A stretch of DNA of 56,662 bases from Nanobdellota archaeon (GTDB lineage: Archaea > Nanobdellota > Nanobdellia > Woesearchaeales > CG1-02-33-12), in contig JAHJQG010000040.1 in NCBI GenBank assembly GCA_018819345.1, positions 1-56,662 of the forward strand, read 5' to 3'. The notes below the pieces were generated by a model, which was not told where the DNA came from, did no database searches, and was given only the letters and a program-made list of their open reading frames with translations. Below, piece after piece: positions 41,710 through 42,885 of the stretch. Position 1 is the first letter of the stretch, and every line of letters starts with the position of its first letter. The position numbers were made by a program, and so were the translations under genes.

Positions 41710-42885
41710 CTAAAGCAACCATTCAGTGTCACTGCTGTTTTCTATTTTATTAAAAGCTGTTTTAATATGGCCAGGAGTTATGTCCCTGCCGCCAAGGCCA
41801 GCAATAAAGCCCTTTATTATTGGTTTTTTATTTTGATTGTAAAATACTGATCTTAATTCAGTGTACATGGCACCTTCATTTCCTAATGATATATTTCGGT
41901 CAATAACTGCAATTCCTTTAAGGTTTTCTGCAGCTTTTATTATTTCTTGTTTTGGGAATGGCCTGAATGATTTTATTTTTATCAAGCCAACCTTTTTTCC
42001 TTGTTTTCTTAGTTCGTCAACAACAACCCTTGTTGTGCTGCATGCAGTGCCCATTGCTGCAATAGCATAATCTGCATCGTTTATTTTGTAAGTTTCTATT
42101 AATCCATTTCCATAAGACCTGTTGAAAGATTTTTTAAAATTATTATTAACATCTTTGATTATATCAATTGAGTTTAGCATTGCCTCATGCGTTGCTTTTC
42201 TGAATTCCATGTAAGTGTTTGGAAATCCAATTGGGCCCATTGTAATTGGTTTTTCTGGATCAAGCTTGAATAAGGGATTGTATTTTGGGAGGAATTTATC
42301 AACATCTTTTTTCTCAGGAATATTAACAGGCTCATAGACATGGCTTAAAGTAAATCCATCTAAGCAGACCATGACTGGCAGTAAAATTTTTTTGTTTTCT
42401 GCTATTTTATATGCCTGGATTACTGTGTCAAGTGCTTCTTGTGCTGATTCAACATAAAGCTGTATCCATCCTGAGTCACGCTCTGATATTGAATCCTGTT
42501 GGTCGTTCCAGATGTTTATTGGAGCGCTTAAGGCTCGGTTTGCAACAGCTATTACAACAGGAAGCCTCATTCCTGAAACTACAAAAAGAATTTCATGCAT
42601 TAATGCCAGGCCCTGCGAAGCTGTTGCTGTAAATGTTCTTACACCCATTGCTTCTGCACCTAAGGCTGCTGAAATTGCACTATGCTCTGACTCTGCATGA
42701 ATCATCTCTGATTTAAGCAGGCCATCATTTATGTAGTCTGCAAGGCGCTCTACTATGTGCGTATCCACTGGTTAAGTATTTACTTAAACCAACTGTGGTG
42801 TTATGGGGTACATAGGAATTACCCCTGGCTCACATAGCTTTACACCAAGTGCTACAGCAGTGCTTGCTTCAATTACTTTTTTCAT
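41710..42885 (-). CDS. porA: pyruvate:ferredoxin oxidoreductase alpha subunit, interrupted by a 30-nt BHB element (exons 42793-42885 and 41710-42762)
   Basis: The ATG overlaps the porD stop (ATGA). Exon 1 reads [31 protein letters not shown]. Exon 2 reads [10 protein letters not shown]...ESEHSAISAALGA...TATASQGLALMHE. The ORF track shows only the GTG-started 352-aa part. Confidence 0.85.
42763..42792 (-). other. candidate BHB mini-intron inside porA
   Basis: The RNA reads CCAC-AG|U-UGGUU-U-AAGU-AAAU-ACUU-AACCA-GUGG-AU|A. It has a 4-bp central helix, two 3-nt bulges on opposite strands and two in-frame UAA codons. Excision restores the frame and the conserved motif. Confidence 0.6.

What the first reader, a model, noticed from the sequence alone, without database searches (positions are those of the whole stretch)
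42763..42792. 30-nt bulge-helix-bulge element with two stop codons interrupts porA exactly where excision restores the conserved protein
The porD stop and an ATG overlap (ATGA, 42882-42885). The ORF opened there reads [31 protein letters not shown], the conserved N-terminus of 2-oxoacid:ferredoxin oxidoreductase alpha subunits.

Thirty nucleotides carrying two in-frame TAA codons follow (LV*VNT*PVD). The same frame then continues as [10 protein letters not shown]..., the rest of PorA. Deleting exactly 42763-42792 gives [11 protein letters not shown]. This is a gap-free fit to the PITP(S/Q)T.I.E motif as I remember it from Pyrococcus PorA.

The RNA folds as 5'-CCAC AG|U UGGUU-U-AAGU AAAU ACUU AACCA GUGG AU|A CGC-3':
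- a 4-bp central helix CCAC/GUGG;
- 3-nt bulges AGU and AUA on opposite strands;
- an intron-internal helix.

Cutting after the second bulge nucleotide on both sides gives precisely the in-frame junction. The same rule fits the tRNA-Arg intron at 21194-21283. The outer exon-exon helix is weak, with only a distal CUAUGU/ACAUAG pairing, so this is a relaxed motif. RtcB ligase and archease are encoded in this window.

The only BHB introns in protein-coding genes that I know of are in crenarchaeal cbf5. One in a core energy-metabolism gene would be new.
Basis: partly seen in the sequence, partly recalled or inferred. Interest (0 to 1): 0.9.

Follow-up and report, generated by a model that had tools for sequence, protein, structure and literature searches.

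The report
Mobile mini-intron splitting archaeal porA gene
A 30-base insert that breaks a core energy-metabolism gene (porA) of a tiny DPANN archaeon is very probably a real tRNA-type (bulge-helix-bulge) intron in a messenger RNA, conserved in many relatives and usually accompanied by a neighbouring homing-endonuclease gene that seems to move it between genomes.

Summary
Window 42763-42792 (- strand) is a 30-nt insert with two in-frame TAA codons between porA codons Q31 and T32. Deleting it gives a 381-aa PorA that aligns without gaps to uninterrupted homologues.

It is neither an artefact nor a pseudogene. About 25 distinct relatives from independent assemblies carry a 21-33-nt insert at the same site, and 9 of 24 lengths are not multiples of three. 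Every one keeps a 4-bp helix (CCAC/GUGG, with CCUC/GAGG and CCGC/GCGG variants), and cutting 2 nt 3' of each strand restores PQ|TH. Each also has a flush inner hairpin of unrelated sequence. A distal exon-exon helix covaries at synonymous codon positions. The rest of porA stays intact and coding.

Best explanation: a relaxed bulge-helix-bulge pre-mRNA intron, cut by the splicing endonuclease and sealed by RtcB. No transcript data exist.

New here: 20 of 20 loci with a free-standing LAGLIDADG endonuclease gene between porD and porA also carry the intron. One intron-plus/intron-minus pair is over 99% identical except for a roughly 200-nt, 25%-divergent patch around the intron. That points to DNA-level mobility resembling collaborative homing.

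The parts
42793..42885 (-). porA exon 1 (31 codons, MKKV...YPITPQ). Its ATG overlaps the porD stop codon.
   Evidence: The exon stays under coding constraint in intron-bearing relatives: variable sites by codon position are 19/14/29.
42763..42792 (-). The 30-nt mini-intron UUGGUUUAAGUAAAUACUUAACCAGUGGAU, with two in-frame UAA codons. The 5' cut lies between 42793 and 42792, the 3' cut between 42763 and 42762.
   Evidence: Homologous inserts of 21-33 nt occupy the same site in relatives. In the close clade the intron differs at 0.056 per site, against 0.345 at flanking third codon positions.
41710..42762 (-). porA exon 2 (THIVERL... to the stop codon, 350 codons).
   Evidence: Pfam POR_N and PFOR_II. 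The exon is intact at 337-350 aa in every complete relative except L030.
42795..42798 (-). Central helix H, 5' strand (CCAC, in exon 1), followed by the bulge AG|U (42794-42792).
   Evidence: The helix has 4/4 pairs in 21 of 21 sequences. The middle pair covaries: A-U in 20, G-C in 4, U-A in 1.
42765..42768 (-). Central helix H, 3' strand (GUGG, in the intron), followed by AU|A (42764-42762). The GTG that gene callers take as a start codon lies inside this strand.
   Evidence: Variants with GAGG, GCGG or GCAG here have no start codon at this position.
42769..42791 (-). Inner hairpin h' (UGGUU-U-AAGU / ACUU-AACCA, loop AAAU), flush with the 3' strand of H.
   Evidence: All five outer pairs show changes on both sides across relatives.
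42810..42815 (-). Distal outer helix h, 5' strand (CUAUGU; codons Pro-3rd position, Met, Tyr-1st position).
   Evidence: The Pro third position covaries with the Ile third position: CCA/ATT, CCT/ATA, CCG/ATC.
42753..42758 (-). Distal outer helix h, 3' strand (ACAUAG; codons His-Ile-Val).
42882..43708 (-). porD (42882-43163) and porG (43160-43708), upstream genes of the operon. In relatives the homing-endonuclease cassette is inserted right after the ATGA at the porD/porA junction. This window has no such cassette.
40455..41363 (-). porB (thiamine-diphosphate-binding beta subunit), downstream in the operon.
46775..48592 (+). Archease (46775-47188) and RtcB RNA ligase (47198-48592), the presumed exon-joining machinery.
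   Evidence: Pfam Archease 129.7 bits, RtcB 528.9 bits.
21179..21345 (-). tRNA-Arg(CCU) gene with a 90-nt intron (21194-21283) at T-loop position 59/60. It shows that this organism must splice at non-canonical sites.

Best explanation
Window 42763-42792 is a relaxed bulge-helix-bulge (BHB) intron in the porA pre-mRNA of a Woesearchaeota/Nanoarchaeota-type DPANN archaeon. Its architecture is outer helix h, loop, central helix H, bulge, inner hairpin h'.

Proposed mechanism:
- The transcript folds so that exon-1 CCAC pairs with intron GUGG.
- An intron-internal hairpin stacks on one side. A 6-bp exon1-exon2 helix (CUAUGU/ACAUAG) closes the other side across an internal loop.
- The tRNA splicing endonuclease EndA cuts 2 nt 3' of each strand of the 4-bp helix, at CCAC-AG|U and GUGG-AU|A.
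- RtcB, helped by archease, joins CAG to ACG. This gives an mRNA for a 381-aa PorA with the conserved active-site loop [11 protein letters not shown].

Status of each step: the fold, its conservation and covariation, the exact restoration of the frame, and the presence of RtcB and archease are shown. Cleavage and ligation are inferred.

At the DNA level the intron belongs to a mobile or formerly mobile unit. In most relatives a free-standing, double-motif LAGLIDADG homing-endonuclease gene sits antisense between porD and porA, 93 nt upstream of the intron. I infer that it cuts intronless porA and that the intron protects its carrier, as in collaborative homing. The window carries an endonuclease-less derivative.
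For: (1) The same site is interrupted in about 25 distinct sequences from independent assemblies, including 6 GTDB species representatives. Insert lengths are 21, 27, 28, 29, 30, 32 and 33 nt.

(2) The central helix has 4/4 pairs in 21 of 21 sequences, against about 1.1 pairs when the partner strand is slid. Cutting 2 nt after each strand always restores PQ|TH. Compensatory CCUC/GAGG (L028) and CCGC/GCGG (L032) variants occur.

(3) The inner hairpins have unrelated sequences but fold to the same shape.

(4) A formal count over 15 pairs in 25 sequences gives 92.3% of cells paired, against 26-50% when slid. The covariation score is 0.431, against at most 0.108 when slid. None of 500 shuffles reaches the observed value, and 8 pairs change on both sides.

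(5) The distal exon-exon helix covaries at synonymous third positions: CCA/ATT 7 times, CCT/ATA 6, CCG/ATC 5, with 2 mismatches.

(6) Nine of 24 introns have lengths not divisible by three. Four lack any start codon at their 3' end.

(7) Exons 1 and 2 remain under coding constraint, and exon 2 is full length.

(8) RtcB and archease are encoded in the window. The same genome has a tRNA intron at the non-canonical 59/60 site. DPANN alpha4 EndAs with the L3 loop are associated with disrupted tRNA genes (PMC5829648).

(9) Mobility:
- 20 of 20 endonuclease-positive loci carry the intron, down to 40% endonuclease identity.
- The 6 intronless loci examined lack the endonuclease gene.
- L016 (intron-plus) and L036 (intronless) are 99.4% and 99.6% identical over 1.0 kb and 4.05 kb of flanks. 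Between those flanks, the spacer, exon 1, intron and the first 24 nt of exon 2 differ at 29 of 117 exon sites. That patch matches the endonuclease-positive L003-type patch at 113 of 117 sites.
- The endonuclease model (pLDDT 93.5) matches I-DmoI and intein endonucleases, and its GDG and DEG catalytic motifs are invariant.
Against: - No RNA-level evidence exists: no spliced junction, no circular intron, no cleavage assay.
- No helix lies directly next to the 3' splice site. It sits in a 6-nt / 11-nt internal loop, so this is not a canonical hBHBh' motif.
- The clade L033-L035 has a C.A mismatch in the central helix.
- The EndA gene of this organism was not found among the ORFs I scanned.
- The local fold energy of the window sequence alone is not exceptional (z = -1.0).
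- For the homing part, the window itself has no endonuclease gene and the cleavage site is unknown. It could be the endonuclease gene's own insertion site, which would make the intron a hitch-hiker.
- Only 6 intronless loci were inspected for the endonuclease gene.
Confidence: 0.82

Rival explanations
1. Split gene. The insert is never removed. PorA is made as two polypeptides, a 33-aa N-terminal peptide ending in -PQLV and a 352-aa chain starting at the GTG inside the insert, which then assemble non-covalently.
For: Gene callers predict exactly these two ORFs in the window and in 7 other protein clusters. Exon 1 has its own start codon and stays coding.
Against: - The GTG is simply the 3' strand of the central helix. 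Variants with GAGG, GCGG or GCAG there (L028, L032, L033, L034) have no in-frame start until codons +6 to +19 of exon 2, which would delete the conserved THIVE.
- No Shine-Dalgarno-like sequence precedes the GTG.
- This model does not explain the covarying helices that tie exon 1, insert and exon 2 together.
- The break would fall inside the most conserved loop of the enzyme, [11 protein letters not shown].
Confidence: 0.05
2. Translational bypassing. The ribosome hops over the insert, as in phage T4 gene 60 or the 'byp' elements of yeast mitochondria, guided by the hairpin and by a stop codon after the take-off site.
For: The insert is short and hairpin-forming, and in most variants an in-frame stop follows the last exon-1 codon within 0-2 codons. 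Variable lengths that are not multiples of three are compatible with hopping.
Against: - There is no matching take-off and landing codon. Exon 1 ends in CAG or CAA, while the insert ends in GAU, GAG or GAA.
- The only repeated CCA would give ...[10 protein letters not shown], and it is absent in several variants (for example L023).
- Bypassing does not need a 4-bp exon-intron helix with cut points exactly 2 nt from each strand, nor a covarying exon1-exon2 helix.
- From my own knowledge, bypassing has not been reported in archaea.
Confidence: 0.03
3. Pseudogene or assembly artefact. The 30 nt is a disabling insertion or a misassembly, and porA is dead in this organism.
For: There are two in-frame stop codons. 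DPANN genomes are reduced and do lose metabolic genes.
Against: - The insert recurs at the same site in more than 25 independent contigs.
- The remaining ORF is intact at 337-350 aa in all complete loci but one.
- Substitutions concentrate at third codon positions in both exons, and the insert itself evolves as slowly as first and second codon positions.
- Compensatory changes preserve the RNA helices.
Confidence: 0.01
4. The intron is a real spliced BHB intron but is not functionally tied to the LAGLIDADG gene. The endonuclease homes to its own insertion site at the porD/porA junction, and the intron, 93 nt away, is merely co-converted. Alternatively the intron is ancient and has been lost repeatedly.
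For: - The conversion patch in L016 starts at the porD 3' end, which is the endonuclease insertion site, and ends only 24 nt past the intron.
- Intron-bearing loci without the endonuclease gene are common: window, L011, L016, L020-22, L028, L030.
- The window's exon context resembles the intronless L007 allele.
Against: - 20 of 20 endonuclease-positive loci carry the intron across 40-100% endonuclease identity. Simple linkage over a 93-nt gap should sometimes break.
- The intron site encodes the most conserved PorA motif, which is the typical kind of homing target. The porD/porA junction is far less conserved.
Confidence: 0.3

Closest known systems
BHB introns in crenarchaeal cbf5 pre-mRNA (Watanabe 2002; Yoshinari 2006; Yokobori 2009, PMC2738675)
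   Same: Both are short ORF-less introns in a protein-coding gene (cbf5 16-44 bp; here 21-33 nt). Both have a relaxed cleavage motif rather than the canonical hBHBh' form. Both show patchy gain and loss among relatives. Both are presumed to be cut by a broad-specificity EndA and joined by RtcB.
   Different: The host gene differs (porA, central carbon and energy metabolism) and so does the lineage (DPANN: Woesearchaeota/Nanoarchaeota and an Aenigmarchaeota-labelled MAG). Here the outer helix is distal and lies in coding sequence, with synonymous-site covariation. Here there is also an adjacent free-standing homing-endonuclease gene and a visible gene-conversion tract, whereas the cbf5 intron was described as too short to carry a nuclease and not linked to one. 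Splicing of cbf5 was shown experimentally; splicing here was not.
Non-canonical archaeal tRNA introns with relaxed HBh' motifs (Marck & Grosjean 2003; Fujishima/Kanai; PMC5829648)
   Same: The geometry is the same: a 4-bp helix with cuts 2 nt 3' of each strand, a well-formed bulge plus inner helix at one site, and a looser loop at the other. The same genome carries such a tRNA intron, in tRNA-Arg(CCU) at 59/60.
   Different: The substrate here is an mRNA, so the exon parts of the helices must also encode protein.
Collaborative homing of a free-standing endonuclease and an ORF-less intron (F-CphI with the psbA group I intron of cyanophage S-PM2; Zeng, Bonocora & Shub 2009; PMC6083498)
   Same: An endonuclease gene lies beside, not inside, a gene that carries a small ORF-less intron. 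Intronless alleles lack the endonuclease gene. A co-conversion patch spans both elements.
   Different: The intron is protein-spliced BHB type rather than a self-splicing group I intron. The endonuclease is LAGLIDADG rather than Endo VII-like. The host is an archaeal chromosome rather than a phage. Cleavage specificity and protection by the intron are untested here. The window itself has lost, or never had, the endonuclease gene.
Archaeal rRNA BHB introns encoding LAGLIDADG endonucleases (I-DmoI, I-PorI, I-Tsp061I)
   Same: A BHB intron is paired with a monomeric double-LAGLIDADG endonuclease. The predicted fold of the 389-aa protein matches I-DmoI with a target-normalised TM-score of 0.65-0.70.
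   Different: There the endonuclease ORF lies inside a several-hundred-nt intron in rRNA. Here it lies outside, antisense and 93 nt upstream of a 30-nt intron in an mRNA. The protein also has extra N- and C-terminal domains, about 100 and 90 aa.

Membership tests
Archaeal bulge-helix-bulge intron (relaxed class) | Two cleavage sites on opposite strands, separated by a 4-bp helix, each 2 nt 3' of its helix strand | tested here: met
   CCAC-AG|U ... GUGG-AU|A in the window. The helix has 4/4 pairs in 21 of 21 distinct relatives against about 1.1 pairs when slid. CCUC/GAGG and CCGC/GCGG variants occur, and one clade has a C.A mismatch.
Archaeal bulge-helix-bulge intron (relaxed class) | Flanking helix on the intron side (h') that makes the 5' site a 3-nt bulge | tested here: met
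   RNAfold gives a flush inner hairpin in all 15 distinct cores plus L032-L034 and L039. All 5 pairs counted change on both sides.
Archaeal bulge-helix-bulge intron (canonical hBHBh') | Outer exon-exon helix directly next to the 3' bulge, making it a 3-nt bulge | tested here: not met
   No pairing directly flanks AU|A. The nearest helix (CUAUGU/ACAUAG) is separated from it by 11 nt on one strand and 3 nt on the other. That helix is real, with covariation at synonymous sites. The motif is therefore relaxed, not canonical.
Archaeal bulge-helix-bulge intron (relaxed class) | Excision by the structural rule restores a functional product | tested here: met
   The 381-aa PorA aligns gap-free with uninterrupted homologues and with PDB 9bt4_B. 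The rule restores PQ|TH for every insert length from 21 to 33 nt.
Archaeal bulge-helix-bulge intron (relaxed class) | Cleavage by EndA and ligation by RtcB, with spliced RNA and circular intron detectable | not testable with these tools
   RtcB and archease genes are present. EndA was not located in the window. No transcript data are available.
cbf5-type archaeal pre-mRNA intron | Located in cbf5 of Desulfurococcales or Sulfolobales | tested here: not met
   The host gene is porA (Pfam POR_N and PFOR_II). Relatives are labelled Woesearchaeota, Nanoarchaeota or Aenigmarchaeota.
Collaborative homing (free-standing endonuclease plus ORF-less intron) | Free-standing endonuclease gene next to the intron-containing gene, and absent from intronless alleles | tested here: inconclusive
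   Met in relatives: 20 of 20 endonuclease-positive loci carry the intron, and 6 of 6 intronless loci lack the endonuclease gene. Not met in the window itself, where porD and porA overlap and no endonuclease gene is present.
Collaborative homing (free-standing endonuclease plus ORF-less intron) | The endonuclease cuts the intronless allele at the intron insertion site, and the intron blocks self-cleavage | not testable with these tools
   This is inference only. The site encodes the invariant [11 protein letters not shown]. All 6 intronless alleles have CCT-CAR at the site, whereas intron-bearing alleles have CCA or CCG.
Collaborative homing (free-standing endonuclease plus ORF-less intron) | Co-conversion of flanking markers around the element | tested here: met
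   L016 and L036 are 99.4% and 99.6% identical in their flanks, with a roughly 200-nt patch that differs at 29 of 117 exon sites and ends 24 nt into exon 2. The patch is closest to the endonuclease-positive L003 type, with 4 of 117 differences.
LAGLIDADG homing endonuclease (the neighbour gene in relatives) | Two LAGLIDADG motifs with conserved acidic residues, and the alpha-beta-beta-alpha-beta-beta-alpha fold | tested here: met
   Pfam LAGLIDADG_3 scores 31-33 bits against a cutoff of 22.5. G113-D114-G115 and D210-E211-G212 are invariant in 38 sequences. The AlphaFold2 model has pLDDT 93.5, and Foldseek hits TliVMA, PI-PfuI, I-DmoI and I-Tsp061I with E-values from 3e-11 to 1e-6.
Translational bypass element (T4 gene 60 / mitochondrial byps) | Matching take-off and landing codons flanking the gap | tested here: not met
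   The last exon-1 codon is CAG or CAA. The last insert triplet is GAU, GAG or GAA.
Group I / group II self-splicing intron | Ribozyme core detectable, with a length of hundreds of nt | tested here: not met
   Rfam finds only tRNAs in the window. The insert is 30 nt.

The most novel reading that the evidence does not exclude
The 30-nt porA insert is the RNA-spliced half of a two-part selfish element. The other half is a free-standing LAGLIDADG endonuclease encoded 93 nt upstream, which cuts intronless porA at the [11 protein letters not shown] coding site. The BHB mini-intron splits that site and so protects its carrier. Both parts then spread together through DPANN populations by gene conversion. 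This would be the first mobile pre-mRNA intron in Archaea and the first case of collaborative homing that uses a protein-spliced (EndA/RtcB) intron. The window would represent the later stage of the homing cycle, after loss of the endonuclease gene, in which the intron persists because it is spliced harmlessly.
Probability: 0.5. Interest if true: 0.88.

Novelty: new variant of a known kind. Interest (0 to 1): 0.82.

Why it matters
In the papers I could search, enzyme-spliced (BHB) introns in archaeal protein-coding genes are documented essentially for one gene, cbf5, in one phylum.

- **A second family.** This one lies in a core energy-metabolism gene of DPANN archaea. It shows that mRNA splicing by the tRNA machinery is not a one-off.
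- **Annotation.** Gene callers currently mis-annotate these porA genes as N-terminally truncated 352-aa proteins. At least 8 protein clusters in public data are affected.
- **RNA constraint on coding sequence.** Synonymous codon positions in the exons covary to keep an RNA helix. This is a clean natural example of RNA-structure constraint on coding sequence.
- **Origin and spread of introns.** The link with a free-standing LAGLIDADG endonuclease, together with a sharp gene-conversion patch, offers a testable model for how such introns arise, spread and persist. That bears on the old question of where protein-spliced introns come from.
- **Metabolic inference.** Predictions for DPANN MAGs that score porA as broken should be revisited.

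Tried and rejected
- **Permissive BHB scan of the window.** It gave hundreds of chance hits and was useless. The strict version gave 3 hits. The two non-porA hits (31218-31269 and 14369-14399) lie inside already continuous ORFs and were dismissed. I found no evidence for further mRNA introns in this window.
- **ARAGORN and Rfam in default mode.** Both miss or truncate the intron-containing tRNA-Arg. It had to be spliced by hand.
- **Looking for a spliced-cDNA-like contig.** The short Logan contig L038 (protein P0005) turned out to be an ordinary intronless allele, CCT-CAG|ACG-CAT-ATT, so it gives no RNA evidence.
- **Is the 57-63-nt porD-porA spacer a deletion remnant?** I compared the spacer of endonuclease-less, intron-bearing loci (L011, L016, L020) with the ends of the endonuclease cassette. 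Only trivial A-rich matches appeared, so this is unresolved.
- **Sequence search of the endonuclease against PDB.** It found nothing. A fold search was needed.
- **EndA.** It was not among the 10 window ORFs scanned with Pfam. I did not scan the remaining ORFs.
- **Literature searches.** Searches for a porA BHB intron, and for DPANN protein-gene introns more generally, found nothing relevant. The library lacks most subscription journals.
- **Ungapped upstream comparison.** The registers were off. It was replaced by BLAST.
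Full report
**1. The observation**

On the minus strand, the porD stop and an ATG overlap (ATGA, 42882-42885). The frame opened there reads [49 protein letters not shown]....

Removing exactly 42763-42792 (TTGGTTTAAGTAAATACTTAACCAGTGGAT) joins CAG to ACG and gives a 381-aa protein.
- It carries Pfam POR_N and PFOR_II.
- It matches many uninterrupted 381-aa PorA proteins at about 90% identity over 100% of its length.
- It matches the solved PFOR alpha subunit 9bt4_B, which reads [12 protein letters not shown], with no gap at the junction.

RNAfold reproduces the proposed fold: CCAC/GUGG, an AGU bulge and an inner hairpin. 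The fold energy of this one sequence is not unusual (z = -1.0).

A strict motif scan of both strands of the whole window returns only three candidates, and porA is the only one that repairs a gene.

**2. Not an artefact and not a pseudogene**

The homologue search showed eight protein clusters of exactly 352 aa starting M/[9 protein letters not shown]. That start is the GTG inside the insert.

I fetched DNA in three ways:
- Contigs encoding those proteins.
- A scan of GTDB species genomes with the insert as the pattern. This gave 6 species, all hitting porA at the same site.
- A metagenome scan with a pattern anchored only on the exons (ATGTAYCCNATHACNCCNCAR-N20-50-ACNCAYATHGTNGA). This gave 17 more loci.

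Adding four loci reached through the endonuclease gene gives about 25 distinct sequences with an insert at the identical codon boundary.
- Insert lengths are 21, 27, 28, 29, 30, 32 and 33 nt.
- Nine of 24 lengths are not multiples of three, which excludes read-through.
- Exon 2 is open and full length (337-350 codons) in every complete locus but one.
- Substitutions in both exons pile up at third codon positions: 19/14/29 variable sites by codon position for exon 1.
- In the close clade the insert differs at 0.056 per site, against 0.345 at flanking third positions.

**3. The RNA structure is conserved by compensation**

I used positions fixed only by the protein-defined junctions, so no alignment was fitted to a structure.
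- The four exon-1 bases at -6 to -3 pair with the four insert bases at -6 to -3 in 21 of 21 sequences. Sliding the partner by 1-3 nt gives about 1.1 pairs.
- L028 has CCUC/GAGG and L032 has CCGC/GCGG. L033-L035 have CCGC/GCAG, with one C.A mismatch.
- Cutting two nucleotides 3' of each strand restores PQ|TH every time.
- The inner hairpins have unrelated sequences but always stack flush on the 3' strand of the helix.

- The third base of the Pro codon (IPM) and the third base of the Ile codon (HIV) covary as A-U (7), U-A (6) and G-C (5), with only two mismatched sequences.
- The intronless alleles L005 and L007 have a mismatch at this pair.
- All six intronless alleles use CCT where intron-bearing ones use CCA or CCG.

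A formal count on an ungapped alignment (A1, 25 sequences, 15 pairs) gave:
- 92.3% of cells paired, against 26-50% for slid partners.
- A covariation score of 0.431, against at most 0.108 for slid partners.
- None of 500 shuffles reaching the observed values, and 8 pairs with changes on both sides.

The architecture is therefore h (distal, 6 bp) - internal loop - H (4 bp) - 3-nt bulge - h'. This is a relaxed BHB motif, not the canonical hBHBh' form.

**4. Mechanism**

The geometry is what the archaeal splicing endonuclease measures: a 4-bp helix with cuts 2 nt 3' of each strand. Several facts make splicing by that machinery plausible:
- The window encodes RtcB and archease side by side.
- The same genome has a tRNA-Arg(CCU) whose 90-nt intron sits at T-loop position 59/60. 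Removing 21194-21283 yields a tRNA that ARAGORN accepts. This organism must therefore process non-canonical sites.
- DPANN lineages, with a Woesearchaeote in the sampled set, have alpha4 EndAs with an extra 'L3' loop that goes with disrupted tRNA genes (PMC5829648).

I infer EndA cleavage at CCAC-AG|U and GUGG-AU|A, followed by RtcB ligation. No RNA data are available, so splicing itself remains inferred.

**5. Rivals**

- **Split protein.** The GTG 'start' is a by-product of the helix. It disappears in L028 and L032-L034, where the next start would delete THIVE.
- **Ribosomal bypassing.** There are no matching take-off and landing codons: CAG or CAA against GAU, GAG or GAA.
- **Pseudogene or misassembly.** Contradicted by section 2.
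- **Self-splicing intron.** The insert is too short, and Rfam finds nothing.

**6. An unexpected partner**

In L001, L003 and many other loci a 389-aa gene lies antisense between porD and porA exon 1. It is a LAGLIDADG homing endonuclease:
- It hits Pfam LAGLIDADG_3 above the cutoff.
- It has two motifs (FIGAIMGDGE and LIRQFFNDEG), and the GDG and DEG residues are invariant in 38 homologues.
- The AlphaFold2 model has pLDDT 93.5.
- Its nearest folds are intein endonucleases and the archaeal intron-encoded I-DmoI and I-Tsp061I.

In L003 the cassette is inserted immediately after the ATGA of the porD/porA junction and brings its own promoter-like TTTAAATA and a new start.

The family has 73 members down to 40% identity. 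The four divergent ones I looked up, including one from an Aenigmarchaeota-labelled MAG, all lie in the same place next to an interrupted porA.

The overall tally:
- 20 of 20 endonuclease-positive loci carry the intron.
- Eight intron-bearing loci, including the window, lack the endonuclease gene.
- Six intronless loci all lack it.

**7. DNA-level mobility**

On a PorA neighbour-joining tree the intron-bearing sequences are scattered among intronless ones. Intron-plus and intron-minus sequences interleave within the clade that shares about 90% identity.

The clearest case is L016 (intron-plus) against L036 (intronless).
- They are 99.4% identical over 1.0 kb upstream and 99.6% over 4.05 kb downstream.
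- 8 of the 17 downstream differences fall in the first 24 nt after the junction.
- Exon 1 differs at 21 of 93 sites.
- L016 has an extra spacer of about 60 nt at the porD/porA junction.
- The divergent patch is nearest to that of the endonuclease-positive L003/L025 type, with 4 of 117 differences.

This is the signature of a gene-conversion tract that carried the intron in, or out.

Together with the one-way association in section 6, it fits collaborative homing as defined for F-CphI and the cyanophage psbA intron (PMC6083498). I rate that reading at about 0.5. The cleavage site is unknown, and simple linkage to an endonuclease that targets its own insertion site is not excluded.

**8. Comparison and novelty**

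The nearest known thing is the cbf5 pre-mRNA intron of Crenarchaeota: 16-44 bp, a relaxed motif, patchy distribution, and described as too short to encode a nuclease (PMC2738675).

This case differs in several ways:
- The gene and the phylum.
- A coding-sequence outer helix with synonymous-site covariation.
- The free-standing endonuclease partner.
- The visible conversion tract.

I found no paper describing it, with the caveat that the library is incomplete. I file it as a new variant of a known kind.

**9. Verdict**

Noticed in passing
window 21179-21345 (- strand), intron 21194-21283: tRNA-Arg(CCU) is interrupted by a 90-nt intron in the T-loop (position 59/60) that contains a strong internal hairpin (GGGGGUUUGGCUUUUAAGCCAAACCC). 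ARAGORN and Rfam miss or truncate the gene unless the intron is removed.
   Followed up: partly
window 41365-41685 (- strand): A 106-aa ORF lies between porA and porB, with CxxC...CxxC (zinc-ribbon-like) motifs and a Lys-rich tail, and has no Pfam hit. An unannotated ORF of 78-105 aa sits at the same place in relatives (L002, L003, L005, L007, L008, L036).
   Followed up: no
L010 (CAYWLA010000005.1) and L012 (CAYMFI010000087.1): Two GTDB representative MAGs titled 'uncultured Methanosarcinales archaeon' carry this Woesearchaeota-type porA with the intron, and L012 also carries the endonuclease gene. The labels probably reflect mis-binning or mislabelling.
   Followed up: no
L011, L016, L020-L022: the roughly 60 nt between porD and porA exon 1: Intron-bearing loci without the endonuclease gene share a conserved spacer of about 60 nt (AAAAGTAAAATATAAATACAATCCTGATTAAACTAA...GAGGTGAGTAAAAAAGTCAAAA). 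It is absent from the window and from intronless alleles. It shows no clear similarity to the ends of the endonuclease cassette, and its origin is unexplained.
   Followed up: partly
L030 (Ga0209427_10253519): porA exon 2 ends after 260 codons, close to the end of the contig. This is either a frameshift (decay) or an assembly problem at the contig end. It is the only intron-bearing locus with a shortened exon 2.
   Followed up: no
window about 8941-9052 and 16015-16106 (- strand), beside ORFs 7034-8506, 9097-10527 and 16288-17691: Near-identical stretches (GGTAAGAAAAGGTAAAGGGAGGT.GGTATAT.ATGTTTTTA.GTAACCAATTAGGCAA...) recur next to three ORFs of similar size (467-490 aa). This suggests a paralogous gene family or a repeated cassette.
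   Followed up: no
L008 and L033: In some relatives extra genes sit between porD and porA: CutA1 and a NUDIX hydrolase in L008, CutA1 in L033. The porD/porA junction therefore appears to be a recurrent insertion point.
   Followed up: no
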